From contig CALDDM010000020.1 in NCBI GenBank assembly GCA_937936355.1, forward strand, positions 7,767 through 71,766: a DNA stretch of 64,000 nt, in the 5' to 3' direction. The translations under genes were made by a program, and so were the position numbers. Position 1 is the first letter of the stretch. Every line of letters begins with the position of its first letter. The stretch comes from Minisyncoccota bacterium. Its GTDB lineage: Bacteria > Patescibacteriota > Minisyncoccia > Moranbacterales > GCA-2747515. The notes under the pieces were generated by a model. The model was not told the DNA's origin. It ran no database searches and was given only the letters and a program-made list of their open reading frames with translations. Positions 10,119 to 40,852 of this stretch are shown one piece after another.

Positions 10119-10190
10119 TCCGCGGTAGCTCAGTGGTAGAGCAGTTGGCTGTTAACCAATTGGTCATAGGTTCGAATCCTATTCGCGGAG
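10119..10190 (+). tRNA. trnN: tRNA-Asn (anticodon GUU)
   Basis: TCCGCGG..GGCTGTTAACC..ATAGGTTCGAATCCTAT-TCGCGGA-G. Its last 12 nt overlap the stop and final codons of the minus-strand recombinase. Coordinates anchored on the ORF-track stop at 10179 (+/-1). Confidence 0.9.
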
Positions 10191-11792
10191 CAACATAGGA
10201 TTTTTGGCATGTATTTTGTCAAAAGTCCTTTTGTTTAGAGAAAAAACAGGTTCCAACCTTACATTATGCTCGTCCATTACCTTGCATGACTGTTGGATAG
10301 CGTATAATTGCTTTTTTGGCTCTATAACAACCTTTTTATCTAGGATGTAGCGGTTCCAACCTAAGTCCTTGATGACAGATCTTTTTGTAGGCGTGTCACC
10401 ATCCTTGAAGCGTTTTTTAGCAAACTCAGCAAAATCTAGATGCTCTTCAAGCTCCTCGATATAGGTTGTAGGTTCTTGCTCTAGACTTGTGAGTGACTTT
10501 TCAATCTTCGCTTTCTTTATTTCCATCTCTGACTGTTTCTTGCTAAACGCTTCTTTGGTAAGCTCGCCATCACTGCGCATATCAATGAGCTTACTAATCT
10601 GATTATCGATTTTGATAATTTGCTTTCGCATTGCATCTTTCTCTGACTCTTGGAGATCGCCTTTCTCTTCAAGTTTCTCTTTTGCTCGCTCTACAGCCCA
10701 CTGGGTAAACTCTGGTGGGATCCAAATGTCACCAAGCATCTTCTCAACCTTATCTTCGATGTCGCTCTCATGCACAGATCCCTGTGAGCATTTATATGAC
10801 TTAGATTTCTTTGTGCAGACATAGAATTTATACTCATGCACGTTGCCATTCTTTTGTTTCTTGGTTTTGTTGTGACCAGTGATGCCCATGTCGCACTCAC
10901 CACAGGCGAAAAGTTTCTTGTAGGGGAGATTATCGACCTTTACTTGGCTTGTTGGGGGTTTTTCGGAAAAGATCCCTTGAAGTTTTTCATATTCTCGCCA
11001 CGTAATCATTTTTTCATGTTTTCCTATATGCCAATTCCCAGATCCTTCTGGATACTCAAATTTTCCTGCATAGAAGGGTAGGGTAAAGATTTTATACAAA
11101 GTAGATCGTGAAAGTGGCTTGCGAGTCTTTGGGTTGATAAGCACACCTTTCTCCTGACTCTCTTTGAAGAGTTGTGCGATTGTTACCTCCTCATCAAGGA
11201 GTCGTCTGAAATATCCTTGAATGATAGGAAAAGCGATCGGATCCTTTTCGATAATTTTGAAACCCTTCTCCTTATCTGGCGTTGAGAGATAGCCTGGCAA
11301 GGCATGACCAGGACGCCACCCTTTCTCTGCCTTTTGAGAGAGTCCACGCTTTACGTCCTCACTTAATTCTTTGATAAATTGGTTTGCCATACCAAGCTCA
11401 ACTGCCATCATGAGAACGTTGTCAGTAGGATAGTAGCTTCTTCCAGGTGTTGAGATATGAGAAATGATGCTTTGCTGGATGTGCCAACTTACCTTTCCGC
11501 CATCGATAGGATTACGAGCGAGGCGATTAAGTTTCCAGCAGAGAATGCCATCTGCCTCACCTTTCTCGATACGAATGATCATCTCATTGAAAACTTCACG
11601 ACCAGGTGCTTTGGCAGATCGTGCTTCGCTAAGAATATCAAGAATTTCCAATCCTTCGTCTGTAGCAAACTTTTTCAGTGCAGTGATCTGATCGTTGATT
11701 GAAGCCATTTGACGATCTTCACTCTCGGATGACTTGCGAGCATACAGAAAGTATTTTTTTGCTTTCTTCATATATTTGATATTACCTCTCAC
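10179..11792 (-). CDS. large serine recombinase (resolvase/invertase N-domain, recombinase domain, zinc ribbon, coiled coil)
   Basis: YARKSSESEDRQ..SINDQ catalytic-Ser region, WKLNRLARN, CGECDMG..FYVCTKK zinc ribbon. ATG 11771 (MKKAKKYF) is the likelier start. Paralog of 24917-26557. Confidence 0.9.
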   Translation of the reverse strand: MRGNIKYMKKAKKYFLYARKSSESEDRQMASINDQITALKKFATDEGLEILDILSEARSAKAPGREVFNEMIIRIEKGEADGILCWKLNRLARNPIDGGKVSWHIQQSIISHISTPGRSYYPTDNVLMMAVELGMANQFIKELSEDVKRGLSQKAEKGWRPGHALPGYLSTPDKEKGFKIIEKDPIAFPIIQGYFRRLLDEEVTIAQLFKESQEKGVLINPKTRKPLSRSTLYKIFTLPFYAGKFEYPEGSGNWHIGKHEKMITWREYEKLQGIFSEKPPTSQVKVDNLPYKKLFACGECDMGITGHNKTKKQKNGNVHEYKFYVCTKKSKSYKCSQGSVHESDIEDKVEKMLGDIWIPPEFTQWAVERAKEKLEEKGDLQESEKDAMRKQIIKIDNQISKLIDMRSDGELTKEAFSKKQSEMEIKKAKIEKSLTSLEQEPTTYIEELEEHLDFAEFAKKRFKDGDTPTKRSVIKDLGWNRYILDKKVVIEPKKQLYAIQQSCKVMDEHNVRLEPVFSLNKRTFDKIHAKNPMLLRE

Positions 11793-19751: not shown

Positions 19752-19826
19752 ATTGCTAATGCCACATCAATGATTTAGCTTGTGGCGATATTGGGCTTGT
19801 ATAGAGTTTACATCTTACCTAAGCGG

Positions 19827-19858
19827 TTTTTTCGTGACTGGGAATAGGGTGTTGGAAC
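19827..19858 (-). repeat. M2-type arm (copy c), right end of element 1
   Basis: TTTTTTCGTGACTGGGAATAGGGTGTTGGAAC. The ATG of the next ORF (19859) abuts the core directly. Confidence 0.7.
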
Positions 19859-24907: not shown

Positions 24908-24936
24908 GGTTCCAACCTAGTCCCATTGCGGGAGCA
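24908..24936 (+). repeat. M1-type arm (copy b)
   Basis: One mismatch over 28 nt to the copy at 34317. Encodes the last codons (LLPQWD*) of the recombinase on the opposite strand. Confidence 0.75.
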
Positions 24937-26557
24937 AGTCAGGAAACACCTCATACGAAGGGGTGTTTTTTGCTTTTGTTAAGCGGTTTTCAGAGGTTCG
25001 AACGACTAATTTCTCGTCTTTGAGGATTTGTGATGCTATTTTTATCTCAGCAAGTGGTTTGTGTAGTTCTACACTGACTATTCCATCTTTTAGTGTGAGG
25101 TCCGAAGCGAAGCTACGGATAAGCTTCTTTATTGCACTGTCGTCTTGCGTTGTCTCGAACTTTCTCTTCGCAGTCTCTGCAACAGCAAGTCTTTCCTCGA
25201 CTTCATCGAGCCAGCTCGATACAGAGTTACTCGTGTTTTTCATGAGGCTATCAAGGTGCTCTTTCTGCTCTTCCAGTGGTTTACGTTTACGCTTCAAGTC
25301 ATCAGCAGAGATTGTGCCATCAGCACAGAGGTCAATCAAGTTATCAATCTTTGTTATACATTTATCGTACAAATTCCTTTGTTTCTTGATAACTTCTGTG
25401 CGTGAGGAAATCATATCAGCGTTTTCTTGCTTAATGATTCCAAGTGACCACTGCACAAAATCATCTGGTATTTCTATGGACGCTGTTTCTCTTGCGAGTT
25501 GCTTGTGTATGTCTTTGCCATGCACTACTCCTTGTGAGCAGATGGTCTTATTTGGGGCTGTGCAGTGATAATGGACATAGTGTCGGACTTTACCATTCTT
25601 TTGTTTTTTGTACCTGTTTTCGGCCGTCACAGTACGTCCACACTCACCACAGCTCATTACACCAGTAAATGGGAAGGAGTGTGTGACTCTTTTGTTTTTT
25701 TGCTTTCCTCCGAGAATGATTTGTATTTTGTTAAATTCATCCTTTGTAATCATTGGTACATGGGACCCTTTGTATGTTTGTCCTCCATAATCAAATTCTC
25801 CGTAGTAAAAAGGGTTGTGGAGCATGTTGTACCAGCATGAGCGTGAAATCTTTTTGCCATTGGACTTTCTTACGCCCCAATCATTTGTCGCAATCTCTAG
25901 GACCTGTTTTGCTGAGTGCGTACATTCTAGTACCTCATGAAACATCTTTTGTATGAGCGTAAAGTTTTCCTCATCAATCTCTATTGTCTTGTAGCCTTTG
26001 AGCTTGTCTGGTGTGTTTACATAGCCTGGGAGAGCTGGACCTGGGAGCCATCCTTGTTTAGCCTTTTTCTTCATGCCACGTTTTACATCCTTTCCTTTGT
26101 TATCATTCTCTAGCTTTGCTTGTGAGCAGTACAGAGAGAGTAAAAACTTATGATGTGGGTCATCATGAAATGTTTGAGATGGTGTCCTGACTTCATGAAG
26201 CAAGCCTCTGTCCATTAAGTCAATCACCATACCTGCATCTCCCGCATTCCTAGAGAGGCGGTTTATATCCCAGAGTAAAATGGCATTTGCTTCTCCGTCC
26301 TCAATCAATCGGAGCATTTCATTAAAACCCTTTCGTTGACCGCACCTCTTTGCAGAGTGTGATTCTTCAATGGGACCACTGGAAATGATAGTGAGATTCT
26401 CACCAATAATCATTTTTTCACCAGCATCTCTTTGTGAGTCAATGGATAGAGCTTGTTTGTCGTCTTGCTCGCTTGATTTGCGGTAGTAAGGGATGTAAAT
26501 GATTTTTATATCTTGCTTCATGGCTAAACTATTACGACATACTATATTGCTTGGCAT
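24917..26557 (-). CDS. large serine recombinase (paralog of 10179-11792)
   Basis: YYRKSSEQDDKQALSIDSQ, WDINRLSRN, CGECGR..YHCTAP zinc ribbon, coiled-coil tail. Alternative start ATG 26521. Confidence 0.9.
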   Translation of the reverse strand: MPSNIVCRNSLAMKQDIKIIYIPYYRKSSEQDDKQALSIDSQRDAGEKMIIGENLTIISSGPIEESHSAKRCGQRKGFNEMLRLIEDGEANAILLWDINRLSRNAGDAGMVIDLMDRGLLHEVRTPSQTFHDDPHHKFLLSLYCSQAKLENDNKGKDVKRGMKKKAKQGWLPGPALPGYVNTPDKLKGYKTIEIDEENFTLIQKMFHEVLECTHSAKQVLEIATNDWGVRKSNGKKISRSCWYNMLHNPFYYGEFDYGGQTYKGSHVPMITKDEFNKIQIILGGKQKNKRVTHSFPFTGVMSCGECGRTVTAENRYKKQKNGKVRHYVHYHCTAPNKTICSQGVVHGKDIHKQLARETASIEIPDDFVQWSLGIIKQENADMISSRTEVIKKQRNLYDKCITKIDNLIDLCADGTISADDLKRKRKPLEEQKEHLDSLMKNTSNSVSSWLDEVEERLAVAETAKRKFETTQDDSAIKKLIRSFASDLTLKDGIVSVELHKPLAEIKIASQILKDEKLVVRTSENRLTKAKNTPSYEVFPDLLPQWD

Positions 26558-27876: not shown

Positions 27877-28458
27877 CTAGAAGTTTCGTCGCACAGATTT
27901 TCTTGTAAACTCAAAAAATACTTCTTTTGAATTTAGCTCGTCTTGTATTTTTTTGTTTAGTCTTTGTGTAGCATCGTATATGCTTCTCATGCCTTTCTCT
28001 GTATTCTCTGGCTCCATGCCGTGCGCTTCTTCATAGATTTCATCCCACGACAAAAGAGCGCATACTTTCCTTTTGGCTGTCATTTTACATATGGCATTCA
28101 TGAGGGAGTTGTGTGGAATATATATTCTGATTGCATTTTCTTTGGTAAATTGCACTATTGATGTTTCCGCGTCAAAGAACAGCTCAAAGCATTTGGCATC
28201 TTGGGCTGAGCTATTCAGTTGTGATTGTTTTTGAGTGGAGGGAAGTATTTTTTTAATGCCGTTAGCCACCGCTTTCTCAATACTCTTCGTCATTCCTGGA
28301 GTGATTTCTCCCTCATCTGACTTATATGTCTCTGAGGGGGTTTTATGAGGCTTCTTTAGATTTGTGATACGATTGAACACAAGCTTTGACTGCCACGATT
28401 TCCTGATAAAGTCTTCGTCGGAAGATTGCTTGTTATTATATTTTCCAGGAGATTTCAT
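27877..28458 (-). CDS. hypothetical protein (element 2)
   Basis: 193 aa. Hairpin GAGTCAC..GTGACTC downstream at 27851-27876. Confidence 0.5.
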   Translation of the reverse strand: MKSPGKYNNKQSSDEDFIRKSWQSKLVFNRITNLKKPHKTPSETYKSDEGEITPGMTKSIEKAVANGIKKILPSTQKQSQLNSSAQDAKCFELFFDAETSIVQFTKENAIRIYIPHNSLMNAICKMTAKRKVCALLSWDEIYEEAHGMEPENTEKGMRSIYDATQRLNKKIQDELNSKEVFFEFTRKSVRRNF

Positions 28459-28754
28459 AACATTTTGAAGCTAATACAATATATCATTTGCGCATCGCAT
28501 AAATGGCACGACACACTAGGGCGAAACAGTTCAATTGGTAGGTTTTGTCGGTGATTCTCAGTATTTGACAAGAAATTATATCACAATACACAGTATTTTT
28601 CCATGCTCGCGACCTGTGATAACCATACATTATATGCTTTGTAGTGGGAATTTTGCATGAATACTGCTTTCTGTAGAATTGATAGTAAGGTATATTATGT
28701 GTATAAAGTCTCTTGCCTACTATATCGTGTAAGAAATATGGACACTCCTAACCT

Positions 28755-30074
28755 TTGAGCAGTATGAATACAAAAATAAATGTTTTTGATTTGAGTGGCA
28801 GTTTCGCCAGTCTTCGAGATAATCCTTATATAAATTATGCAACGAGCGAAGGTAATGATGCTCTTGATGGCATAGCAGAGGCAGATATTTTTGTAGGTGA
28901 CTTGAGTGATATCGACCAAGAAGTTTTGGCATCTATTGAAAAAAATAAGGAAACTATAAGGAGAATGTTGCTTAAAAGTTCGTCTATGTTTTTTATATCT
29001 GAGCTTGATGGTCCATTAAAAGGTGCTATGTTCGATGGTGTCATACCTCATATTGGTAGGTATCTCGTGGGAGTAAAGCCTTTGAGCGGGAGCTATGAGG
29101 GTGCAAAAAAGGAGGATGACTCCACAATTTCGATGTTACGAGCGAAAGGTCTTGTAAAAAAATATTCTGGAATAATTAAGTTGCATAGTGTTGGTCAATC
29201 ATTATTTCATGATGGTAGCATGTATCCAAAAGGAACCGTTCCTGGGTATGTACGCCGCGTTGCTGATTGCTATCCACTGCTTGTCATAAAGTCTGGCGAA
29301 AGCACGGCACTTAAGATTGAGTATACTCATGGCAAAGTACACATACTGACATGTATAGAAGAGCAGGTAGAAATAGTTGAGGCGTATGTAAGTAGTTTTA
29401 CTGGCGGACTTGAGAAAGAGCCAGATTTTCTTGTTGATATAAAGATTTTTGGACAAGTTGCCATAGAAGAAAGTTTGACAAGTATCGTTAAGGAGATTGA
29501 AGAGCGGAAAATTGCGCTTGCAAATAAAAGAAGGGAGTATGAAGAGCTTGGGACTTGGAAGGAGCTACTATGGCAGTCGGGAGACAGGCTTGAGGAAATT
29601 GTGAAAAAATTCTTTGCAGAATATTTTCAGTTGAATATGAACGTGTATATTTATGGAGAGCATGATGATGAGGCGGATTTGAAAGGTGAAAAAGATGGTA
29701 TGACAATTATTGCAGAGGTCAAAGGTGTGAAGGGTGCTATCAATACAAAGGACCATGTCTCACAGGCTGTAAGAAGAGTGTTGGACCTCACAGAGCAATT
29801 TGATGATAAATTAAAGGTGGTGTTGGTAGGGAATGGCTTTAAGGATAAGCCCTTGTGCGAAAGACTTGCTACTGGAGATGGAGGGATGATTGATGATAGA
29901 GCAATAGAGTTTGCACGGAACAATGGAGTTTGTGTGGTTTTGTCAAAAGATATATTTGAGATAGTCCAAAAATCGGAGAGTGGTGAGTTGACGCAAGAGG
30001 ATAGGGATAATTTTCTAAAACAAATTTTAGCAACTGATGGTCTCTGGCAACTAACAGATACAGAAAGTGATTAG
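28755..30074 (+). CDS. protein with coiled coil and C-terminal PD-(D/E)xK (Mrr-like) nuclease motif
   Basis: GDRLEEIVKKFFAEYF...EADLKGEKDGMTIIAEVKGVKG. Track start is TTG 28755; ATG 28764 is likelier. Confidence 0.45.
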   Translation: MSSMNTKINVFDLSGSFASLRDNPYINYATSEGNDALDGIAEADIFVGDLSDIDQEVLASIEKNKETIRRMLLKSSSMFFISELDGPLKGAMFDGVIPHIGRYLVGVKPLSGSYEGAKKEDDSTISMLRAKGLVKKYSGIIKLHSVGQSLFHDGSMYPKGTVPGYVRRVADCYPLLVIKSGESTALKIEYTHGKVHILTCIEEQVEIVEAYVSSFTGGLEKEPDFLVDIKIFGQVAIEESLTSIVKEIEERKIALANKRREYEELGTWKELLWQSGDRLEEIVKKFFAEYFQLNMNVYIYGEHDDEADLKGEKDGMTIIAEVKGVKGAINTKDHVSQAVRRVLDLTEQFDDKLKVVLVGNGFKDKPLCERLATGDGGMIDDRAIEFARNNGVCVVLSKDIFEIVQKSESGELTQEDRDNFLKQILATDGLWQLTDTESD

Positions 30075-30234
30075 TTGGAGGATAAAATATATCAGTCCAA
30101 GCAGTACTCACCATTCCAATTTGTATCCTTCTTTACATGACAAGTGTGAGAAATCAATCATCTCTGTGGGTGGTAGGGTAGGGTTTGTGATAGGTGTGGA
30201 TAAGTAAAGATGTGAGGTGATGAGTAATTTTTAA

Positions 30235-30825
30235 TTGAGAAAAATGAAAAACCGAAATGATTACTCTGAATACTTGAATAGTGAGTGGTACTTTATTTGC
30301 ATGGAGTTCAAGGAGGTTATGGAAATGATTGGTAAGGAGGAGGGTTATATTGTTCCAGTACCATATCATTGGGGTTGTAAGAAGATTATGAGATTGTGTG
30401 AGAGTCTATATAGTTTTGGAGAAAAAGCCTCAAAGGATGAAGACGTGAATAAAAGCGCTAAGGAACGTGCTCCAAGATTTTTTGAGAAGGAAGACGCGCA
30501 ATTGTGTATGCAAATGTGTCGTGACCTTGCTAATCTTGGTAAGCATAGAGTCCTCAATGAGGGAGCAAATGATTCAGGTATACATTGGCTTGAGACAGGC
30601 TCGATATTTACAGTTTCGATGAGCAAATTAGACTATGCTTTTGAGAATAATGTAACGCATCACGCATTAGATTCTGATGAAGAGTATTGTGGAGATTATA
30701 TTGTAGTATTTAAGGGTAATGAGTATAACATGCGAGATGTCTTGCAAGATTGCTATGTCATTTGGAGTAATTATTTGGAGGATAATCAGTTATTGATTCC
30801 AAACTTTTCCTCACATGCGACTTAG
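30235..30825 (+). CDS. hypothetical protein (element 2 cargo)
   Basis: 196 aa. Its stop lies 2 nt before the M2 arm. ATG 30244 is a possible start. Confidence 0.5.
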   Translation: MRKMKNRNDYSEYLNSEWYFICMEFKEVMEMIGKEEGYIVPVPYHWGCKKIMRLCESLYSFGEKASKDEDVNKSAKERAPRFFEKEDAQLCMQMCRDLANLGKHRVLNEGANDSGIHWLETGSIFTVSMSKLDYAFENNVTHHALDSDEEYCGDYIVVFKGNEYNMRDVLQDCYVIWSNYLEDNQLLIPNFSSHAT

Positions 30826-30827
30826 GA

Positions 30828-30860
30828 TTTTTTCGTGACTGGGAATGGGATGCTGGAACC
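30828..30860 (-). repeat. M2-type arm (copy d), right end of element 2
   Basis: TTTTTTCGTGACTGGGAATGGGATGCTGGAACC. The first 21 nt are identical to copy c. Confidence 0.7.
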
Positions 30861-30898
30861 GATGATATACTTATTATCTAATCAGTCAATTTGCATTT

Positions 30899-31888
30899 AT
30901 GAAGGAAAGAGATATTTTGCATCTGATTGCATCTGACGATGAGATGATGGCTGCCTTGAGAGCTGTTGAAACTTTAAGTTTACCTGACTGGATGATTGGA
31001 GCGGGCTTTGTTCGCAATAAGGTGTGGGACTACTTACATGATTTTGATAAGAAAACAGTATCGAGTGAAATCGATATTGATGTTGTCTATCTAGATGGTG
31101 AAAATCAAGATGAGGCTCTTGAAGCTGGCTATGAGAAAAGACTGGACGCACTGTGTCCTGGAAACTGGTCTGTAACAAATCAAGTAAGAATGGCGAAGAT
31201 ACATGGTCACGAACCGTATAAGTCATCAGAAGAGGCTATATCATATTGGCCTGAAACGGCGACGTGTTTAGGTGTGAAAATTGAAGATGGTGAGCTGAAT
31301 GAAGATCTATTCCAACTAGTCTTTCGACAAGTACTAGAGATTATAATGAGGCATTATTGTGAAGAAGATATTATAAGTGATGTCGAGGAAGTTTGGAAGA
31401 AATGTCTGGAAGAGATAAAGAATGGAGTAGAAGGTCTTCCGCATGATAAAGATAAGTTTGTTTTTCTGAAAGAATATGTTGAAAAAAGGTGCTCAGAAAA
31501 AGAGTGTCGCTGCTATAAGCGCGGAAAAATGTTTCACAGTGCAAGGTGTTATGTGTATGGCGAGCTAAGGCGTTTTTATTCGCCGTACTTAGCAAGAAAA
31601 TCATGTAGTGATAGTTTTGACTGCATGTTTGAAGTTGTTAAGGCGGTTCTTGACGAAAATATAAAGAATATTACTTACAGCAAACAAGTAAAATTTCTCC
31701 AAAAAAGGATTAGGGATGTTGATATTGTCACATATTATGAATCACTGAGTGGAACGGTCCATGTTGGAGGGGGAAACTATAATAAAAGTGCAGATGAGGA
31801 TGTTGAGCAGTCTGAGGTAACTCTTGTTGATAAGTCAGTCTTCTTTAAGAAAATACAGATAATTAGAAAAATTATTAACATTTACTAG
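30899..31888 (+). CDS. nucleotidyltransferase-family protein (NTP_transf_6/DUF925-like N-domain) with a C-terminal extension
   Basis: ALRAVETLSLPDWMIGAGFVRNKVWDYLH..IDIDVVYLD pattern. Confidence 0.55.
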   Translation: MKERDILHLIASDDEMMAALRAVETLSLPDWMIGAGFVRNKVWDYLHDFDKKTVSSEIDIDVVYLDGENQDEALEAGYEKRLDALCPGNWSVTNQVRMAKIHGHEPYKSSEEAISYWPETATCLGVKIEDGELNEDLFQLVFRQVLEIIMRHYCEEDIISDVEEVWKKCLEEIKNGVEGLPHDKDKFVFLKEYVEKRCSEKECRCYKRGKMFHSARCYVYGELRRFYSPYLARKSCSDSFDCMFEVVKAVLDENIKNITYSKQVKFLQKRIRDVDIVTYYESLSGTVHVGGGNYNKSADEDVEQSEVTLVDKSVFFKKIQIIRKIINIY

Positions 31889-32077
31889 CGCTAAGCAATT
31901 CGCAGTAAATTTGAGACAAGGCTATCTTAGGGTGGTAGAGCAGATCTGAATATCAGAAAAAGGTAGTGGCTAATTCCTAAATATACTTCGTTAGAGGCTT
32001 AGATTTTACGATAAATACTTTACACAATAATATAAATGTGATAACGTATATCCACCTCATTTTAAGGAGTAGCACAA

Positions 32078-32758
32078 ATGGCTACAGCAAGTATTGTTCC
32101 AGTGTTTCATGCAAGCAATGGTGACCTGATTAGTCCAAATATGTATTCTCATACGGATTGGGCAGTACTAAGACATGTGACAGAAAACTCAGTTGTAATA
32201 TTGGAGGGTCACGCATCAGAAAAGAGAGTTCCACCGAGCCACAAGAAATACCCCTTGATTAGTCGCCAGTTAGGACCTTCCTTTAAGAGAGTGCAAAGTT
32301 TACCCGAGCTGTATATGGGTGATGCTACTGGGGTTATCTACAAAAATCTCAAAGCGCTCATAAAAGACAATGAGCTAAGAGCTAAGGCGCAAGAAAAAGC
32401 TGCTGATCTTGTGAGGCACAATCGCATCCCTGCATCATGGGAAGAGTTTGTTCAAATGACCAAGGATGATGAATTTGACTTCGAGATCACTGGAAAGCTT
32501 GCCTCTAAGTGGCGACCCATTTTCCATAGGTGGCGAAGGGTCACTCACCAGAGAGATGAATCAATGGCGAAAGCAATCAGCTTGAATCTAGATAAAGGCA
32601 AGGATGTTTTCCTCATTGTGGGAGCTATGCACGTATTTGAAATACACAAAAAAGGGGGTTGGCCAATTGCATTCTATGAAATTAGTGATAATGAGCACAT
32701 TGGAAAAGTCTTCAAGGAGTGGTTTTTAGTCTACAAGGCAATAGACCACATTACGTAA
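32078..32758 (+). CDS. hypothetical protein
   Basis: 226 aa. AGGAG precedes the ATG. Confidence 0.55.
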   Translation: MATASIVPVFHASNGDLISPNMYSHTDWAVLRHVTENSVVILEGHASEKRVPPSHKKYPLISRQLGPSFKRVQSLPELYMGDATGVIYKNLKALIKDNELRAKAQEKAADLVRHNRIPASWEEFVQMTKDDEFDFEITGKLASKWRPIFHRWRRVTHQRDESMAKAISLNLDKGKDVFLIVGAMHVFEIHKKGGWPIAFYEISDNEHIGKVFKEWFLVYKAIDHIT

Positions 32759-33034
32759 GCAATATTTACTCACAGGGCGAAAATTCGCTTTGTGAGTTTT
32801 CGTTTTCTTTTAAAAGAAATTACTTCCACACACACCCTTACAACTTCTCCATATCTATATATAAAACAGGGCAAGAAAAAATCATCTGGTGGGGCGTAGG
32901 GTGGGCGGGCGGTAGTACTGCTTTATGATTGGAGATGACAGTATAAAGTTTGATCAACTGTCCTTATTGTCACCAAGGTTCTTTAACAAATCTTCCTGAT
33001 ACTCTAACCTCTTCGCAATACTGGACCAATCAAT

Positions 33035-33121
33035 AGTTCTGAACTTGTTCTTCTCACGGAGCCAGTAAAAAAGTCCCATCAAATGGGGCTTTTTTGTGAC
33101 TGGTAATAGGACGTTGGAACC
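33035..33121. repeat. composite M1-hairpin-M2 unit (copy e)
   Basis: AGTTCTGAACTTGTTCTTCTCACGGAGCC, then AGTAAAAAAGTCCCATCAAATGGGGCTTTTTT, then GTGACTGGTAATAGGACGTTGGAACC. The hairpin is nearly identical to copy f. Confidence 0.65.
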
Positions 33122-33186
33122 TCCTTGTACAATGCAATTTTATATGTTAATTTTACGCTGCTTGAATAAACTCATACATTGATCTT

Positions 33187-33720
33187 ATGCTGTTTAAAGA
33201 ATCGCTAGCTACAAAGATAATCATAATTTTTGCTATTGTTGGGAGCTTTCTATTTGGTATGTTTTCGGAAAAGCTAAATGTAAGTACGCATTTGGCATGT
33301 AATGGTGTGAGTGGGGAAAGTCCTAATGCTGGCTCTTACCTCTACCACTCCGATGGCAAAGAAGTGTGTTATAAGTATGATCATGATGATCCTGGTGCAT
33401 TTTTCTGGTCTCTCATTACACTTGGATTAGGGAATGAGAAAATTATTCTAGAAGATGTTGATCCTAAAACATTTTTTGCGCCAACTAATAGTGGAATTGT
33501 CTATGATAAAGATTATATTTGGACTGATAGAGGAAGGAATAGAATGAAGATATCTGAGATTTGGGGATTTGTCCATACGATGGATGCAAAATGTATTGAC
33601 GGAAAAGAATTTGATACGAGTAACAGGAAAAATGAATTAGGCTTCGATTTTTTTTGTGAGCCTTATCGGGAAAATTTTGGCGAGAGCTATTCTGGTGACA
33701 AAAGCTACTTGCTCTGGTAG
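33187..33720 (+). CDS. membrane-anchored hypothetical protein
   Basis: 177 aa with an N-terminal TM helix. Confidence 0.5.
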   Translation: MLFKESLATKIIIIFAIVGSFLFGMFSEKLNVSTHLACNGVSGESPNAGSYLYHSDGKEVCYKYDHDDPGAFFWSLITLGLGNEKIILEDVDPKTFFAPTNSGIVYDKDYIWTDRGRNRMKISEIWGFVHTMDAKCIDGKEFDTSNRKNELGFDFFCEPYRENFGESYSGDKSYLLW

Positions 33721-33777
33721 ATCGGTAGATTTCTGCTTAGCTCTGCTCTGTGGTCTGTTAGTATTGACGATCTGAAC

Positions 33778-34278
33778 ATGACTATTATTCATACGTTAAA
33801 ACATATGGAAAGAACAATAAGGTCCATTCTTGGAGGATTATTTCTTGGGGCTGTTGCACTTACTCTTCTGCCGATTTTCATATTTGGAGGCATCTACTTC
33901 ATGGAGCAAAGGGACATCAAGCAGATGGGTAAAGTAGAGCCTGGTGACCCATGCTATATGAGGAAGAAATTTATCGGAAAGGGTGGGCATGATATGGATT
34001 ATGAGGTTAGAGGGGATCGTGTGTGTATACTGTTTCACCAAAGTGGATCATTTGCGTATTTTAAAACACTAGAAGATGCAGACTCTGCTACATTTACTAA
34101 AATTGATGGTGGCTATTTTATAGATAGGAATAGAGTGTATTACGATCAAGGGAATATCGTAGTTGGCGCAAATCCTCTTATGTTTAAATCTGTTGGGAAT
34201 GGTTATTACACAGATGATGTTCATTATTTTTATGATGGACGAAAGGTTGATGTAGATTTTGATGAGAACCACGATTGA
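33778..34278 (+). CDS. membrane-anchored DKNYY-like repeat protein
   Basis: FIDRNRVYYDQG..GYYTDDVHYFYDGRKV motifs. Confidence 0.55.
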   Translation: MTIIHTLKHMERTIRSILGGLFLGAVALTLLPIFIFGGIYFMEQRDIKQMGKVEPGDPCYMRKKFIGKGGHDMDYEVRGDRVCILFHQSGSFAYFKTLEDADSATFTKIDGGYFIDRNRVYYDQGNIVVGANPLMFKSVGNGYYTDDVHYFYDGRKVDVDFDENHD

Positions 34279-34316
34279 GGTGATCTCCTTATTGATGATC
34301 AGTTATCTGGATAGGT

Positions 34317-34403
34317 GGTTCCAATCTAGTCCCATTGCGGGAGCTAGTAAAAAAGTCCCATCAAATGGGGCTTTTTTTGTGGGCGTGAATAGGACGCTTG
34401 AAC
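34317..34403. repeat. composite M1-hairpin-M2 unit (copy f)
   Basis: GGTTCCAATCTAGTCCCATTGCGGGAGCTAGTAAAAAAGTCCCATCAAATGGGGCTTTTTTTGTGGGCGTGAATAGGACGCTTGAAC. Confidence 0.75.
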
Positions 34404-34429
34404 TATTGTCATTTTATGGATAAATTTTC

Positions 34430-34460
34430 TTGACATGGGTGTCAGGCCCATGTGTATAAT
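34430..34460 (+). promoter_or_regulatory. MerR-type promoter P1 (19-bp spacer with operator dyad)
   Basis: TTGACA, 19 bp, TATAAT. Perfect dyad ACATGGG (34433-39) / CCCATGT (34447-53) inside the spacer. Confidence 0.7.
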
Positions 34461-34504
34461 TCTAGGTATGGTACCTCGTATCACTAAATAATAATAAAAC
34501 AAGA

Positions 34505-34702
34505 ATGAAGAATACATTTCTTGCTGCTGTGCTGGTCGTTGGAGCTGTCACCCTCACAGGTTGTGGGTCTGGTGAAAAAGCAATGACTGAGGCAGAGCAT
34601 GCAGCATCACTTGGTCTCACAGAGGAGGAGTATCAAGAGAATAAAGAGGCAGCAGCTCGTATGAATATGGATGTCGACGAGCATGTGAAAATGGGACACT
34701 AG
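34505..34702 (+). CDS. small lipoprotein, Met/His/acidic-rich (possible metal-binding)
   Basis: Lipobox LTGC. Tail MNMDVDEHVKMGH. Downstream of P1. Confidence 0.6.
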   Translation: MKNTFLAAVLVVGAVTLTGCGSGEKAMTEAEHAASLGLTEEEYQENKEAAARMNMDVDEHVKMGH

Positions 34703-34765
34703 TCACTATCTCATGTGATAAAGGCGCACACTTTAAGTGCGCTTTTTGTATTGTGCATAATTTAC

Positions 34766-34796
34766 TTGACATGGGTGTTAGACCATACTTTACACT
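34766..34796 (+). promoter_or_regulatory. MerR-type promoter P2 (19-bp spacer)
   Basis: TTGACA-TGGGTGTTAGACCATACTT-TACACT. The left half-site is identical to P1. Confidence 0.6.
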
Positions 34797-34843
34797 ATGA
34801 GATATTAATGCAACATACAGCACATATTGAAAAACGCAACCAT

Positions 34844-36133
34844 ATGAACTATCCCAAGATAAAAAATGCGAGCAGGAAGAATAAGGTGATTTTGTTTTTG
34901 GCTTTCGTACTGTTAGCTGTGATCATAGTTTTTGGAATATATTTTGTAAAAGGCGATACTAGTACATCTTCCCAAATGATGGTTGGTGACAGCATGCAAG
35001 ATAAGATGGTAAAGAAAGAGATTGCAACTGTGAGTCCTGTGGAGCGCAAGAACGCAAACTCTCTCATGCTTGTGGGTACAGTGATCTCCAATGAGTCAGC
35101 GATGATCTATCCCCGACGTGAGGGTATTGTCAAAGACATCTATGTAGATATTGGGGACACTGTAGAAGCTGGAGAGGTGATCGGAACACTTTTCCCTCGT
35201 GGCGTTGAGGGTCAGGCTGATGCAGTCATTTATGAGGCGCAGAAAAAGAGAGACTTGGCGGATACTATTGTGGATGCAAGAGAAGATCTGGGTGATGCAG
35301 CGAGGGATGCAGCAGACGAAAGAGACATTTCAGATGAAGAGGAGGAGTTGGTAGACGAGGAGCAGGATTTACTGGAAGCAACTGCACTTGAAAACTTGAT
35401 CATTGCAGAGGCAAATCTCAGCAAAGAAATCATTATCCAAGGACATACAAAGTTGATCTCTCCATTCTCGGGAACGATTGCAAAGCGCTATGTTGCCGTC
35501 GGTGAAAGCATTACACCATCAAAACCAGTGTTTAGCTTGGTTGACGTGCCAACGCATTTAGCTCATAAGGCCGAGAATGAAATACATTTTAGTGTGTCAG
35601 AAGATCTCATGGATGAGCTAAGTATCGGTGATGAAGTAGCGTTTTTCCTTGGGAAAGATGAGTCAAAGGTACACACTGCTAAGGTCACACGGATCAGTCC
35701 GCAAATTGATAAGATGACACATCAATTTTCTGTGCAAGCTGCAGTGCCAGATGATCTAAACGTTCCACACAATGCAAAGGTTCGTGTGCGTTTTGTGACA
35801 TCTGACGAGCGCATTTACAGTATTCCATCATCGAGTATCAAGCGAATTGATGATGAGAATTTTGTATGGATTTTGGATAGTGATGATAGCACTACTAGGA
35901 CAACGGTCCATGTGTTTGGAGATGATGGAGAATTTGCAGAGGTGACAGGCAGTATCGACTCTACGTCAAAAATCATAAAGCGTGTGACATCGGAAATGAT
36001 GGAGAGTGCGAAGGATGTAGAGATGATGCAGATGAATGATGAAGAAGTGATTACTGATGATGCGGATATGGAGATGACTGCAGAGAAAGGCAAGGGACCG
36101 ATTACAATAGAGGGTAACATGCAAGCACCATGA
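34844..36133 (+). CDS. efflux RND periplasmic adaptor (membrane fusion protein)
   Basis: Track ORF starts at 34715, but P2 lies inside that extension. ATG 34844 gives MNYPKIKN.. plus a TM anchor. Lipoyl/beta-barrel-like VGDTVEAGEVIG. Stop overlaps the RND start. Confidence 0.7.
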   Translation: MNYPKIKNASRKNKVILFLAFVLLAVIIVFGIYFVKGDTSTSSQMMVGDSMQDKMVKKEIATVSPVERKNANSLMLVGTVISNESAMIYPRREGIVKDIYVDIGDTVEAGEVIGTLFPRGVEGQADAVIYEAQKKRDLADTIVDAREDLGDAARDAADERDISDEEEELVDEEQDLLEATALENLIIAEANLSKEIIIQGHTKLISPFSGTIAKRYVAVGESITPSKPVFSLVDVPTHLAHKAENEIHFSVSEDLMDELSIGDEVAFFLGKDESKVHTAKVTRISPQIDKMTHQFSVQAAVPDDLNVPHNAKVRVRFVTSDERIYSIPSSSIKRIDDENFVWILDSDDSTTRTTVHVFGDDGEFAEVTGSIDSTSKIIKRVTSEMMESAKDVEMMQMNDEEVITDDADMEMTAEKGKGPITIEGNMQAP

Positions 36134-39100
36134 TTGATTTTCTCATAAAAAAAGCCCTTGATAATGCCTTTCTTACAATCATTGCATTTGCCGTCATCAT
36201 CGGAGCAGGCATCGTTGTACTAGGAAAGACACCTGTGGATGCCCTTCCTGATCTCAGTGAAAATCAGGTTGTAATCATGACACAGTGGTCAGGGCAAAGT
36301 CCACGTAATATCGAGGATCAAGTGACGTACCCACTGACAGTGAGTATGCAGGGGCTAGCTGGTGTACGTGATGTGAGAGCAATGTCGCAGGTCGGTATTT
36401 CGATGGTGACCGTGATCTTTGAGGATAACATCGACATCTATTTCGCACGTGATCGTGTGTCAGAGAGACTGGCTACAGTCAGGGCAGATTTGCCTGGTGG
36501 TGTGACGCCAGTTCTTGGTCCAGATGCGACAGGGCTTGGACAGATTTTCATGTATACACTTGAGAGTGATGCGCATACACTTACGGAGCTTAGATCATTG
36601 CAAGACTTCACGGTCCAGTACGCTCTTGAGAGCATCTCTGGTGTTGCAGAAGTAGCGCCTGTTGGCGGTTATGTGAAGTCCTATCAGGTGGTGCTAGATC
36701 CTGTGAAGCTTTCACAATATGGTATTAGCATCTCTACTGTCATGCAGGCAATTCAAGGTGGCAATAATAATGTCTCTGGAAAAGTTATCGAAGTCGGTGA
36801 TGAAGAGATTGCTGTAGAGGGAGTAGGTTTCTTCACATCTTTAGAAAGCCTTGATAACCTCACTCTCCGTGCAGGGGGAGACGGTGCAGTTGTAAAAATA
36901 TCAGATGTGGGACGTACTCGACTCTCGGGAAATGTCAGACGGGCAGTCCTTGCTGACGAAGAGGAAGAAAAAGTTGGTGGCATTGTCGTCATGCGCTACG
37001 GAGAGAATCCACTTGAAGTCATTGAGAGTGTGAAGGCTCATATTGCTGAGACCCAGAAAACATTGCCAGAGGGTGTGACAATCGTTCCATTCTATGATCG
37101 CACCACACTCATCGAAGCTGCAATTGATACTCTCCGCAGTGTTTTAACCTTGGAGATCATCATTACAGCACTTATTCTCGGAGTCTTTTTGTGGCATTTT
37201 GGATCGACAATTATCGTGGTACTTTCCCTTCTTGTGGGTGTGCTTCTGACGTTTATCTTTATGTATGCATTTGGCATACCATCCAATATCATGAGCCTTG
37301 GTGGTATCGCTATTGCGATTGGGACGATGGTGGATAGTGCGATCGTGATCAGTGAAAACGCCTACAGAAAACTCCTTGAGCAAAAAGCAAGGACACTTGC
37401 AGATCGTGTACGTATCGTAAAAGAAGCGACGCTTGAAGTGGGTAAGCCTGTTGTTTTTGCAATCCTCATCATCATCATTTCCTTTCTCCCAATCTTTAGC
37501 CTCGAAGGCATGGAAGGAAAACTCTTTGCGCCACTTGCCTTTACCAATGTCTTTGCAATGCTTGGCGCTCTCATCGCAGCACTCTTTCTTGTGCCACTTC
37601 TGAGCACCTATTTCCTCAGAGGAAAGCTACGTGAGGATCATGAAATATGGGTAGTGGTTACGCTACAAAAACTCTACAGACCTCTGCTTGCAAAAGCACT
37701 TCACTTCCGCAAAGTGACACTAGGGATCGCTGGAGGACTCCTCGTCATTGGTGGCATACTTTTCACACAGCTCGGCTCAGAGTTTATGCCAGAACTCGAT
37801 GAAGGATCGATCATGTATATGCCTATGACCGTGCCTGACGTATCTGAGGCACGTGCCACTGAACTTCTTCTCGAAACCAATGAGATCATTGCCTCTATCC
37901 CAGAAGTAGAAAAAGTTGTGGGAAAAGCAGGTCGTGCAAACTCAGCAACCGATCCAGCACCGCTTGCAATGCTTGAGACGTTTATTACACTCAAGCCACG
38001 AGATCAGTGGCGAGAGGGATATAGCAAGGGTGACATCATCAGAGAGATGAATCGTAATATCAAGATCGATAATCTCTGGAGTGGATTTACACAACCCATT
38101 ATTGGAAGGATTGATATGCTCTCTACTGGGATACGTGCGCAAGTCGGTATCAAGATCTTTGGTGATGATCCGCTTGTATTGGAAGAGCTTGCTATTGAGG
38201 CGGAAGACCTCATGGGTGAGATCCGTGGTGGTCTTGGGATTGCAGCAATCCGCACGACAGGCCTCAGGTATCTCGATATTGAATTGAATGATGAGCGTCT
38301 TGCACTCTACGGTGTTCAGAGGAAAGATGTGCTGCAAGCGATTGCTGTAGGTGTAGGAGGTGCTACTGCTGCAGTGACGGTTGACGGGCGTGAGCGATAC
38401 AACATCGAAGTGAAACTGGCGCAAGAGTATAGACAGGACATCGAAGACATCAAATCACTGACGGTACCAAGCGTGTCAGGTGGTGATATTCTCCTGGGTA
38501 GTGTCGCTGATATTGAGCTGACCAACGGTCCTGCAACAATTAACAGTGAGAATGGCGTCATCAGAAGTGCTGTGCAGATGAATGTCTCTGGTCGTGATCT
38601 CGTATCATTTGTAGATGAGGGTCGCATGCATCTTGAAAAAAACCTTGCATTACCTGATGGGTATTATGTTGAGTGGGCTGGTCAGTATGAAAACCAATTA
38701 CGTGCCAAAGAGCGGCTCATGATCATCGTGCCGATTGTGATCGGCATCATTTTTCTCCTCCTTTATCTTGCGTATAGGGATTTTGGACTAGTATCAATTG
38801 TGGCGGTAAGTATTCCTTTGAGTTTTGTGGGAGGGATCATTGCATTGTTCGCTGCAGATTTCAATCTCTCGGTAGCAGTGTGGGTAGGGTTTATTGCGCT
38901 GTTTGGCAATGCAGTGGAGACCGGTGTCGTCATCGTTGTATATCTTGAAAATGCTTACAAAAAACGCTTTGGGAAGTTGGAAGAAAATGACGATGGGAGT
39001 GATGATGTATTACCTATAACACGTGAAGGTATCTATGAAAGTGTTATGGAGGGAGCGACACTTCGCTTGCGCCCCGTTCTCATGACAGCGTTTACCTCAG

Positions 39101-39264: not shown

Positions 39265-39277
39265 TAAATAAAACACT

Positions 39278-39775
39278 ATGAAAAAAACAACATTGGCTAT
39301 AGCCATGGGAACAGTTCTGCTTGTTGGTTGCACTACAAAAAAAGAAGTTTCGACTCAAAAAGAATTAGAGGGGTTGGCACCAGAAACAATTGCTCGTGTG
39401 GAAAGTCAGAATAAAGAGACAGCAGAACTTGCACAAAATGACTTCCGTGATGACATAAAAAACGAAACGAGCACGGTCAGTGGCGAATACACAGGAGACG
39501 GATACTACGAAGTTCACGATGGTACAGTAAAAGAGGATATTGATTTTAAGTTCGTCATTGAAAATGATGTGGTTGCATCTTTTGAAATGCTTGGGGAGGC
39601 TAGCGTGCCTGACAGTGCGTGGCATCAGGAGCTTTTTATGGAGAAAGCAACACCAAAAATTGTTGGGAAGGACATCGCAACACTTGAGATTGACGTGGTC
39701 TCAGGTGCTTCAGCAACAACAGAAGGTTTCAGAAAGGCACTTCAGGACGTGAGAGAGCAAGTGTCAAAGAGCTAA
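39278..39775 (+). CDS. lipoprotein with FMN-binding-like domain
   Basis: Lipobox LVGC. C-terminal VVSGASATTEGFRKAL. Confidence 0.55.
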   Translation: MKKTTLAIAMGTVLLVGCTTKKEVSTQKELEGLAPETIARVESQNKETAELAQNDFRDDIKNETSTVSGEYTGDGYYEVHDGTVKEDIDFKFVIENDVVASFEMLGEASVPDSAWHQELFMEKATPKIVGKDIATLEIDVVSGASATTEGFRKALQDVREQVSKS

Positions 39776-40152: not shown

Positions 40153-40173
40153 AGAGATTTTTTTAGAGAAAGA

Positions 40174-40757: not shown

Positions 40758-40852
40758 GGTTCGAACCTAGTCCCACTCAGGGAGCTAGCAATAAAAACAG
40801 CCCTATAGGGGTTGTTTTTTGTTGCTTACTTTGTAGCGCATAGGATTCGAGC
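40758..40852. repeat. composite M1-hairpin-M2 unit (copy g), right edge of the accessory region
   Basis: GGTTCGAACCTAGTCCCACTCAGGGAGCTA, then AAAAACAGCCCTATAGGGGTTGTTTTTT, then GCGCATAGGATTCGAGC. The reverse complement of the last part, CTCGAATCCTATGCGC, resembles the tRNA-Asn 3' end. Confidence 0.6.

What the first reader, a model, noticed from the sequence alone, without database searches (positions are those of the whole stretch)
33035..34403. Two roughly 87 bp M1-hairpin-M2 mini-units flank a two-gene block, and their left half is homologous to the recombinase 3' end
Units e (33035-33121) and f (34317-34403) share an almost identical hairpin, AGTAAAAAAGTCCCATCAAATGGGGCTTTTTT. The M1 part of f differs from the rec2-embedded arm (24908-24935) at one of 28 positions. 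The following hairpin plus T-run mirrors AAACACCTCATACGAAGGGGTGTTTTTT inside the rec2 coding sequence. The minis therefore look like collapsed or miniaturised derivatives of recombinase elements (MITE-like), or like foldback recombination sites. M1 and M2 can pair, so each unit could form a roughly 90 nt imperfect hairpin. That hairpin would also work as a bidirectional terminator.
Basis: partly seen in the sequence, partly recalled or inferred. Interest (0 to 1): 0.8.

Follow-up and report, generated by a model that had tools for sequence, protein, structure and literature searches.

The report
Serine-recombinase attachment-site junctions beside tRNA-Asn
The two 87-base units are most likely junctions left where gene modules were spliced one after another next to a tRNA gene by large serine recombinases, in a candidate-phyla (Patescibacteria) bacterium; they are not miniature jumping elements.

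Summary
Units e and f exist and share a near-identical terminator hairpin. The left arm of f matches 24908-24935 at 27 of 28 bases. The left arms of e and f are unrelated, and M1-M2 foldback pairing is marginal.

The two "recombinases" are large serine recombinases (LSRs) of a large Patescibacteria family. In 36 of 60 related loci the gene ends against the 3' end of a convergent tRNA gene. The element boundary, a dyad centre and three homology breakpoints in the window all fall in GGAGC, at the tRNA 3' terminus.

"M1" has a T-loop-like octamer 15 nt from GGAGC; real tRNAs have 10 nt. This is the published 5-bp shift between LSR attP and attB half-sites. The pattern occurs 21 times against about 2 expected, including at the far ends of LSR elements elsewhere.

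So each unit is a junction. M1 is the right-end half-site of the module on its left. The hairpin plus M2 is the left end of the module on its right. The two-gene block (33060-34341) is one recombinase-less module in a tandem island, 10.2-40.8 kb, at tRNA-Asn.

The MITE reading and whole-unit homology to the recombinase 3' end are not supported. The role of M2 is unresolved.

The parts
10119..10191 (+). tRNA-Asn(GTT). Its last ~22 nt (10169-10188) form the B-type left half-site of the attachment site.
   Evidence: ARAGORN and Rfam. The gap from the T-loop octamer GGTTCGAA to GGAGC is 10 nt.
10175..10202 (.). attL of the rec1 element. Dyad AATCCTAT TCGCG-GA-GCAAC ATAGGATT, with its centre between 10188 and 10189.
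   Evidence: Read from the sequence. The same centre shows 0.50 complementarity in 27 LSR-adjacent tRNA junctions, against a background of about 0.25.
10179..11792 (-). rec1, a large serine recombinase (537 aa). Its 3' end overlaps the tRNA by 13 nt.
   Evidence: Pfam domains Resolvase, Recombinase and Zn_ribbon_recom.
10249..10361 (.). Two GGTTCCAAC(C) palindromic boxes inside rec1 (10249 and 10352), called motif 2 and motif 3 here.
   Evidence: The equivalents are conserved in 38 related genes in three different reading frames.
19790..19858 (+). Hairpin-less unit: a decayed tRNA-Asn-like arm, then a T-run, then the M2 box (19827-19858).
   Evidence: Repeat family D4 and alignment to the tRNA. 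M2 and the first ~20 nt after it are conserved in L087/L089.
24908..24935 (+). M1-A, a P-type left half-site abutting the rec2 end. The crossover is inferred between 24932 and 24933.
   Evidence: (gap 15). Homology to the P0003 locus L083 starts at 24931.
24917..26557 (-). rec2, a large serine recombinase (546 aa). Its left-end arm carries a terminator hairpin (about 24942-24971) and motif 2 (24995-25003).
30795..30860 (+). Hairpin-less unit: a P-type arm (GATTCCAA, gap 14, GCGAC), then the rec1-type sequence CTTAGGATTTTTT, then the M2 box (30834-30860).
33035..33062 (+). Unit e, M1-B: a P-type left half-site (AGTTCTGA, gap 15, GGAGC). It is the inferred right end of the module 30820-33059.
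33067..33095 (.). Unit e hairpin, A6-GTCCCAT-CAA-ATGGGGC-T6, an intrinsic-terminator-like structure that could act in both directions.
33096..33121 (+). Unit e M2 box, GTGACTGGTAATAGGACGTTGGAACC. It resembles an inverted tRNA 3' end and lies about +55 nt from the core.
   Evidence: (D4).
33187..34278 (+). Two-gene cargo: a 177-aa protein (33187-33720) and a 166-aa DKNYY-family protein (33778-34278).
34317..34344 (+). Unit f, M1-A: a P-type left half-site, the inferred right end of the two-gene module 33060-34341.
34349..34403 (+). Unit f hairpin (34349-34378) and M2 box (34379-34403). This is the inferred left end of the efflux-pump module 34342-40782.
40758..40852 (+). Unit g: an M1-A-type P arm (40758-40785), a hairpin (about 40790-40820) and the inverted tRNA-like sequence ATAGGATTCGAGC (40840-40852). 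It is the last junction seen in the window.
   Evidence: The right flank 40840-40879 is 84% identical to the flank of the far-end junction in L082.

Best explanation
e and f are recombinant attachment-site junctions inside a tandem genomic island. The island was built at the 3' end of tRNA-Asn by large serine recombinases (LSRs).

Proposed mechanism:
- LSRs of this Patescibacteria family recombine an element site (attP) with a chromosomal site (attB).
- The left half of attB is the last ~22 nt of a tRNA gene, from the T-loop octamer GGTTCGAA to the acceptor end. The crossover lies in GG|AGC, so the tRNA stays intact.
- The recombinase gene ends up convergent with the tRNA and reads into it.
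- The left end of the element (P') brings a new terminator for the tRNA.
- The right end of the element (P arm) is a tRNA-end mimic whose octamer lies 5 bp further from the crossover.
- Repeated integrations push older modules rightwards. Each junction then reads: P arm of the nearer module, GGAGC, left end (hairpin, then the M2 box) of the older module.

Reading of the units on this model:
- M1 of f is the right end of the two-gene module 33060-34341.
- The hairpin and M2 of e are the left end of that same module.
- M1 of e belongs to the module before it, and the hairpin and M2 of f belong to the efflux-pump module after it.
- Only two of about seven modules still carry a recombinase.

What is shown: the domain content of the recombinases, their adjacency to tRNAs, the position of the boundary, the half-site geometry, and the mosaic structure of the units.

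What is inferred: the order of integration events, that the recombinase-less modules are or were mobilised in trans, and any role of M2 as an accessory binding site or promoter.
For: 1. rec1 and rec2 are LSRs. They belong to a family with more than 5,600 hits, named in Patescibacteria where a name is given.
2. In 36 of the first 60 related loci a convergent tRNA (Asn, Gln, His, Lys, Ser, Trp, Ala, Glu, Arg or Leu) abuts the gene's 3' end.
3. The element boundary is at the tRNA 3' terminus. Comparing L005 (tRNA-Gln) with L006 (tRNA-Asn), identity is 50% upstream, 61% in the tRNA and 86% in the first 100 nt downstream. L014 versus L015 behaves likewise.
4. There is a dyad centre 19.5 nt after the start of the T-loop GGTTC.
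5. Three window breakpoints coincide at GGAGC: rec2 versus L083, f versus rec2, and e versus f.
6. The gap from octamer to GGAGC is 10 nt in tRNAs and 14-15 nt in M1 of rec2, e, f, g and 30795. L009, L026, L037, L058 and L079 show the same +5. This matches the published 5-bp shift of the ZD motif between LSR attP and attB half-sites (PMC3783163).
7. The P-type pattern occurs 21 times in 1.01 Mb, against 2 in controls. Twenty of the 21 are in the same orientation relative to the LSR. They include the far ends of elements in L027, L028, L052, L062 and L082.
8. In L082, the closest relative with both ends, the far-end junction is a P arm followed by a terminator hairpin and then a flank 84% identical to the right flank of g.
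9. Tandem LSR elements also occur in L062 and L052.
10. The genes between 10 and 41 kb are accessory-type.
Against: - No empty site and no presence/absence polymorphism of any module was found. Only one sample holds this sequence.
- The right halves of e and f show no half-site symmetry next to the core, so they may be inactive relics.
- M1-A is 27/28 identical at two junctions although rec1 and rec2 share only about 31-34% identity (31% in the alignment; 34% in the tblastn). This needs arm exchange between modules or a shared specificity.
- M2 also occurs in a relative next to an IS200-like gene and upstream of an operon that is outside the island in this window. Part of the unit may therefore be regulatory rather than recombinational.
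- The exact crossover dinucleotide is inferred from symmetry, not observed.
Confidence: 0.65

Rival explanations
1. The units are scars of decayed recombinase genes. Each recombinase-less module once carried its own LSR gene reading into the unit. The gene was later deleted and only its last ~65 nt (hairpin to motif 2) remain.
For: The hairpin and the M2 octamer lie at +55 to +63 nt from the core, as does motif 2 in LSR genes (coordinates). The minus-strand reading of e and f gives an F..K..F..P pattern reminiscent of the family C-terminus. Older LSR genes do sit to the right of far-end junctions in L062 and L052.
Against: tblastn with nine family members finds no LSR fragment in the window other than rec1 and rec2. 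The 3'-end profile does not hit e, f or g. Five independent deletions would all have had to stop at the same box. The same hairpin+M2 end is joined to different cargo in the window and in L087.
Confidence: 0.2
2. One reading: the 87-bp M1-hairpin-M2 units are MITE-like non-autonomous elements. They are bounded by the inverted repeats GGTTCCAAC...GTTGGAACC and move as whole units.
For: The termini are inverted copies of one octamer. There are several copies. A cargo-less segment of about 114 nt lies between the tRNA and the LSR in L002.
Against: e and f are mosaics: their left arms are unrelated and their right parts are 97% identical. No target-site duplication is seen. All copies in the window lie in the tRNA-linked island. 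There were no hits in viral contigs and only five stretches in JGI metagenomes for the M2 box. Serine recombinases of this type perform site-specific recombination, not transposition.
Confidence: 0.07
3. The units are ordinary intergenic punctuation. A bidirectional terminator closes the upstream gene and M2 is part of the promoter or operator of the downstream gene. They look alike because of shared regulation, and have no recombination role today.
For: Every unit lies after the upstream plus-strand genes, most of them directly after a stop codon. The hairpin is terminator-like. M2 is followed within 3-10 nt by TATACT, TATGAT or TACAAT, and stays linked to the downstream gene in relatives. 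This includes one place next to an IS200-like gene, upstream of an operon homologous to 47.65-51.73 kb.
Against: It does not explain the P-type half-site geometry of M1, its recurrence at the ends of LSR elements in other genomes, or the breakpoints at GGAGC. The promoter scan finds no sigma-70-type site at M2. This reading is compatible with the best explanation for the hairpin and M2 parts.
Confidence: 0.15

Closest known systems
Tandem genomic islands at tRNA genes, with displaced tRNA fragments marking old junctions (Islander/TIGER islands; Prochlorococcus tycheposons)
   Same: Successive integrations at one tRNA gene push older elements inward. Partial tRNA-like sequences and integrase-less remnants are scattered through the island, which carries accessory cargo (PMC7192596; bioRxiv 10.1101/2020.12.28.424599).
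   Different: Those systems use mainly tyrosine integrases that cross over inside the tRNA and carry a copy of its 3' end. Here the enzyme is a large serine recombinase. The boundary is at the tRNA 3' terminus, so the tRNA is not replaced. The 'partial tRNAs' are mimics 5 nt longer than the real end.
attP/attB sites of large serine integrases (Listeria A118/LI integrase model)
   Same: An enzyme with the Resolvase, Recombinase and zinc-ribbon domains of a large serine recombinase. A quasi-symmetric site around a central position. A distal motif of about 8-9 bp placed 5 bp nearer the centre in attB than in attP (PMC3783163). Here the octamer lies at about positions 13-20 in the tRNA and 18-25 in M1.
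   Different: The target is the 3' end of tRNA genes of many specificities. The recombinase ORF runs across the crossover. The element arm contains a terminator and one to two further copies of the octamer palindrome 63 and 166 nt away. No activity has been shown.
Integron gene-cassette arrays (attC sites)
   Same: Cargo blocks alternate with imperfect inverted-repeat sites of 60-100 nt that end in ...AAC and GTT... boxes. Each site in the array is a hybrid of two partners. Some blocks have no recombinase of their own.
   Different: No IntI tyrosine recombinase, no attI and no Pc promoter. The blocks are multi-gene. The half-sites mimic a tRNA end. Mobility of the blocks is not shown.
MITEs and other short dispersed palindromic repeats (REP/BIME-like)
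   Same: Short, non-coding, with terminal inverted repeats and a central hairpin.
   Different: No target duplication. Not dispersed within the window. Copies are mosaic rather than unit-like.

Membership tests
Large serine recombinase attachment sites | A cognate recombinase with Resolvase, Recombinase and zinc-ribbon domains encoded next to the site | tested here: met
   rec1 and rec2. The site abuts or overlaps the gene's 3' end in the window and in related loci.
Large serine recombinase attachment sites | Quasi-palindromic half-sites around a central crossover position | tested here: inconclusive
   Met for the tRNA|rec1 junction and on average for 27 related junctions. Not evident for the right halves of e and f, as read from the sequence.
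Large serine recombinase attachment sites | Distal (ZD) motif shifted by 5 bp between attB-type and attP-type half-sites | tested here: met
   Gap of 10 nt in tRNA-Asn against 15 nt in M1 of rec2, e, f and g (14 nt at 30795). The same +5 appears in five other loci. The rule is taken from PMC3783163.
Large serine recombinase attachment sites | Recombination between attP and attB catalysed by the enzyme | not testable with these tools
   Needs an in vitro or in vivo assay.
Displaced tRNA 3' fragment (classical attR of a tRNA-integrating island) | A direct repeat identical to the 3' part of the intact tRNA | tested here: not met
   No copy of the tRNA-Asn 3' end within 3 mismatches elsewhere in the window. 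M1 is 5 nt longer and 56-68% identical.
MITE | Terminal inverted repeats | tested here: inconclusive
   The octamers at both ends are inverted copies. Pairing of the whole arms gives z -2.0 for e and +0.2 for f.
MITE | Target-site duplication and unit-like copies dispersed in the genome | tested here: not met
   The flanks differ with no duplication. Copies are mosaic. All lie in the island within this window. The rest of the genome was not available.
Integron attC | An IntI-type tyrosine recombinase with attI next to the array | tested here: not met
   Only serine recombinases were found in the island.
Intrinsic terminator | A G+C-containing stem-loop followed by a T-run (here also preceded by an A-run) | tested here: met
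   Termination itself was not measured.

The most novel reading that the evidence does not exclude
The recombinase-less blocks would form a serine-recombinase counterpart of integron cassettes. Each block has a shared left end of about 64 nt (terminator plus M2 box), then variable cargo, then a P-type tRNA-mimic half-site. They would be non-autonomous cargo modules that resident LSRs stack at tRNA 3' ends in trans. The extra GGTTCGAACC palindromes (M2, and motifs 2 and 3 inside LSR genes) would be accessory binding sites for the zinc-ribbon domain, something not known for large serine integrases.
Probability: 0.2. Interest if true: 0.8.

Novelty: new variant of a known kind. Interest (0 to 1): 0.55.

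Why it matters
Patescibacteria have tiny genomes, and how they gain accessory genes is poorly known. A very large LSR family (more than 5,600 relatives) appears to dock at the 3' end of many different tRNA genes without cutting the tRNA. That would be a main route of island building in this phylum.

It would also provide natural attB/attP pairs whose half-site logic can be read directly from sequence, which is useful for integrase prospecting. I found no paper describing this in the searchable library. That is not proof that it is undescribed.

For the finding itself, the result replaces a 'new MITE' reading with an explainable junction structure. It leaves two real puzzles: the M2 box, and the octamer palindromes inside the recombinase genes.

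Tried and rejected
1. Crossover in the T-loop, with the element carrying a replacement tRNA 3' end (my first model). I rejected it because closely related elements sit beside different tRNAs whose 3' ends match their own 5' halves, and homology starts only after ...GAGCCA.
2. M2 as the right half-site of the same att site. Its octamer lies 55-63 nt from the core (26-34 nt in the hairpin-less units), which does not fit positions 13-25. Motifs 2 and 3 show no symmetry beyond the 8-10 bp palindrome.
3. Whole-unit homology to LSR 3' ends, tested with an nhmmer profile. It gave no hit on e, f or g.
4. A structured-RNA reading. Rfam has nothing at the units and there are too few copies for covariation analysis.
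5. An empty-site test through the uracil-DNA glycosylase gene next to g. Its best relatives are Bacteroidota at 68-70% identity, so it gives no syntenic relatives.
6. A presence/absence test through exact-protein look-ups. Only the same sample (ERR9287626) holds these proteins, and its contigs simply break at the 32-nt exact repeat shared by e and f.
7. Pattern scans of viral contigs for M1-A and M2 gave no hits.
8. A sigma-70-type promoter at M2. None was called by the scan.
Full report
**What is in the sequence**

- Their blocks 33058-33095 and 34340-34377 are 97% identical.
- The first 28 nt of f match 24908-24935 with one mismatch, and no such match occurs in 100 shuffles.
- The repeat search adds further copies. 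These are a third full unit g (40758-40852) and two units without the hairpin (30795-30860 and about 19790-19858). The right-hand box M2 is present four times (19827, 30828, 33089, 34372).
- Fuzzy searches find no copy before 19.8 kb or after 40.9 kb.

**The recombinases and their family**

- ORFs 10179-11792 and 24917-26557, both on the minus strand, have Resolvase, Recombinase and Zn_ribbon_recom domains. They are therefore large serine recombinases, LSRs.
- The rec1 ORF overlaps the 3' end of tRNA-Asn (10119-10191) by 13 nt.
- rec2 has more than 5,600 relatives at E below 1e-20. Where a source names them, the organisms are Patescibacteria.
- I fetched 80 related loci from species-representative genomes. 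In 36 of the first 60, a convergent tRNA gene abuts the recombinase 3' end: Asn, Gln, His, Lys, Ser, Trp, Ala, Glu, Arg or Leu. Several more have a tRNA-Asn that ARAGORN misses, or a contig that ends there.
- The arrangement is stereotyped: the tRNA end, then about 60 nt that often form a terminator hairpin, then a box GAGGTTC(G/T)AAC, all inside the C-terminal codons of the recombinase.
- The closest relatives, P0003 (70% identity) and P0002 (73%), sit beside tRNA-Asn. For P0003 this is downstream of dnaG and rpoD, as in the window.

**Where the element ends**

My first idea was a crossover in the T-loop, with the element carrying a spare tRNA 3' end. The data do not support it.
- L005 (tRNA-Gln) and L006 (tRNA-Asn) carry closely related elements. 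Identity is 50% upstream of the tRNA, 61% within it and 86% in the first 100 nt after it. Each tRNA 3' strand matches its own 5' strand. L014 versus L015 behaves the same way.
- In 27 LSR-adjacent junctions there is dyad symmetry centred 19.5 nt after the first G of the T-loop GGTTC. This is between the last two bases of the acceptor 3' strand. Complementarity there is 0.50 against a background of about 0.25.
- At rec1 the site reads AATCCTAT TCGCG-GA-GCAAC ATAGGATT (10175-10202).
- The site is therefore centred in GG|AGC at the tRNA 3' terminus, and the tRNA is left intact.

**What M1 is**

- In tRNA-Asn the T-loop octamer GGTTCGAA is 10 nt from GGAGC. In M1 next to rec2, in e, in f and in g the gap is 15 nt, and at 30795 it is 14 nt.
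- Where related recombinases have no tRNA beside them (L009, L026, L037, L058, L079), the same octamer lies 5 nt further out than in their tRNA-adjacent cousins.
- This matches the rule for large serine integrases. Their distal zinc-ribbon-domain (ZD) motif is 5 bp closer to the centre in attB than in attP (PMC3783163). With the centre in GG|AG, the octamer occupies about positions 13-20 in the tRNA and 18-25 in M1.
- The pattern [AG]GTTCN[AG]A-N14-16-GGA[GA]C occurs 21 times in the 1.01 Mb held. Reversed sequences give 2 and shuffles give a mean of 2.0. Twenty of the 21 have the same orientation relative to the recombinase.
- Besides sites directly next to a recombinase 3' end, the pattern marks the far end of elements several kb upstream of the recombinase start, in L027, L028, L052, L062 and L082.
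- In L082, the P0002 element, the far end reads: P arm, GGAGC, A-run/T-run terminator hairpin. It is built like e and f. It then continues into a flank 84% identical to 40840-40879 at g.
- M1 is therefore the right-end (P-type) half-site of an LSR element, not a piece of a recombinase gene. The rec2 ORF simply runs across the core into it. Its tail changes from ...PDLLRG* in P0002 and P0003 to ...PDLLPQWD*. Other members read into the antisense of the tRNA in the same way, giving tails such as ...LLRGSDSN.

**e and f are mosaics**

I took the G|A of GGAGC as the origin.
- e versus f: 52% identical in the 25 nt to the left (z 0.0), and 97% in the first 35 nt to the right (z 7.5).
- rec2 versus f: 96% to the left (z 6.3), then 71% and 45% to the right.
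- Homology between rec2 and the P0003 locus starts at 24931.

These three independent breakpoints coincide at the position predicted from the symmetry. This is the signature of junctions made by site-specific recombination. Each unit combines the right end of the module on its left with the left end of the module on its right.

**Map of the island**

| Segment | Content |
|---|---|
| 10119-10191 | tRNA-Asn |
| 10189 to about 19826 | rec1 module |
| about 19827-24932 | recombinase-less: GNAT, EamA, methyltransferase |
| 24933-30819 | rec2 module |
| 30820-33059 | recombinase-less: nucleotidyltransferase, TraB-like |
| 33060-34341 | recombinase-less: the two-gene block |
| 34342-40782 | recombinase-less: HlyD/AcrB efflux pump, MerR, MauE |
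| after 40782 | right part of g |

- Tandem LSR elements also occur in L062 and L052, where the far-end junction runs into an older recombinase gene.
- L026 has a 1.5-kb recombinase-less module of the same build next to its LSR.
- L002 has a cargo-less segment of about 114 nt between the tRNA and the LSR.
- The window holds no recombinase pseudogene fragments apart from rec1 and rec2.

**Hairpin and M2**

- Any element that docks at a tRNA 3' end separates the tRNA from its own terminator. A terminator at the element's left end is therefore expected. The e/f hairpin is terminator-like.
- M2 resembles an inverted tRNA 3' end: AATAGGAcgTTgGAACC is the reverse complement of GGTTcCAAcgTCCTATT.
- Its octamer lies 55-63 nt from the core, as does motif 2 of the recombinase genes. 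In the two hairpin-less units it lies 26-34 nt away, shorter by about the length of the hairpin.
- M2 is too far out to be the right half-site. Motifs 2 and 3 show no symmetry beyond 8-10 bp.
- In the recombinase genes the same 11-mer, GAGGTTCGAAC, is read as F-E-P, as V-R-T or as G-S-N depending on the copy and the lineage. This argues for conservation at the DNA level.
- M2 keeps its downstream partner in relatives. L087/L089 have an e-like hairpin+M2 (88% identity) in front of an HD-domain gene. L088/L091 have M2 after an IS200-like gene and 570 nt upstream of an operon homologous to 47.65-51.73 kb.
- M2 is followed by TATACT, TATGAT or TACAAT, but the promoter scan does not call a site there.
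- I leave its role open. It could be an accessory binding site, a promoter element, or both.

**What is not supported**

- Pairing of M1 with M2 is marginal for e (z -2.0) and absent for f (z +0.2).
- A profile of 27 LSR 3' ends does not detect e, f or g.
- There is no target duplication.
- No evidence of present-day mobility could be obtained. Exact-protein look-ups return only contigs from one sample, and those break at the 32-nt exact repeat shared by e and f.

**Comparison with known systems**

- Tandem islands at tRNA genes, with tRNA-like remnants and integrase-less pieces, are well known. They are described mainly for tyrosine integrases that cross over inside the tRNA.
- Here the enzyme is a large serine recombinase, the tRNA is not cut, and the remnants are attP-type mimics.
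- I found no description of this in the searchable library.
- I therefore rate the finding a new variant of a known kind, of moderate interest.
- The more novel possibility is a serine-recombinase cassette system with accessory sites. It is not excluded, but it is unproven.

Noticed in passing
window 15984-16099 (+): A full-length match to the Rfam LOOT RNA family (RF03000; 69.6 bits against a gathering score of 46.4). It lies inside the rec1 module, between divergent genes of unknown function.
   Followed up: no
window 10249-10258, 10352-10361 and 24995-25003; L002-L081 at about 7412 and 7515: Recombinase genes of this family carry two copies of the palindrome GAGGTTCGAAC(C), about 103 nt apart, near their 3' ends. 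The copies are read in three different frames (F-E-P, V-R-T, G-S-N). Within rec1 both copies have the same variant, GGTTCCAACC. The sequence equals the T-loop-like octamer of the half-sites. Its function is unknown.
   Followed up: partly
L083 6700-7150 (also L084, L085; similar sequence shape in L008, L028, L029): The tRNA-Asn next to the P0003 recombinase is split after anticodon position 35 by an insert of about 374 nt. The insert has group-I-intron R and S boxes (GGTTCAGAGACTA, GATATAGTCC), and ARAGORN misses the gene. This matches the group I introns at position 35/36 of Patescibacteria tRNA-Asn reported in PMC13011429.
   Followed up: partly
L004, L008, L015, L027, L032, L034, L045, L047, L062, L068, L078 (locus ends): Many contigs stop within about 50-120 nt after the recombinase 3' end. 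This is as expected if assemblies break at the attachment site or tRNA because of population heterogeneity or repeats.
   Followed up: no
window 40897-41517 (-): The uracil-DNA glycosylase gene just beyond unit g has its best relatives (68-70% identity) in Bacteroidota and Flammeovirga, not in Patescibacteria. This suggests horizontal acquisition, so the island may extend past g.
   Followed up: partly
window 34423-34448 and 34759-34784: A 26-nt box, AATTTTCTTGACATGGGTGTCAGGCC, occurs twice (88% identity) in front of the HlyD/AcrB efflux genes. It contains TTGACA followed about 19 nt later by TATAAT, and a MerR-family regulator lies at 39772-40152. It looks like a MerR-type long-spacer promoter, duplicated.
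   Followed up: no
L002 7590-7680 and L082 200-330 (minus strand): Two distant genomes share a small relic built as: terminator, inverted tRNA end (CTCCG..ATAGGATGAGAA), then a partial tRNA-Asn 3' end in which GGTTCGAATCC is replaced by GGGTAAATCC. This is a B-type arm that lacks the octamer.
   Followed up: no
L091 485-973 (-), L088: An IS200-like (Y1_Tnp) transposase gene with its end hairpin sits directly upstream of an M2 box in a relative from two JGI metagenomes.
   Followed up: partly
window 8502-8634: Degenerate 12-nt periodic lysine/alanine-rich repeats lie in the N-terminal part of the sigma-70 (rpoD) gene.
   Followed up: no
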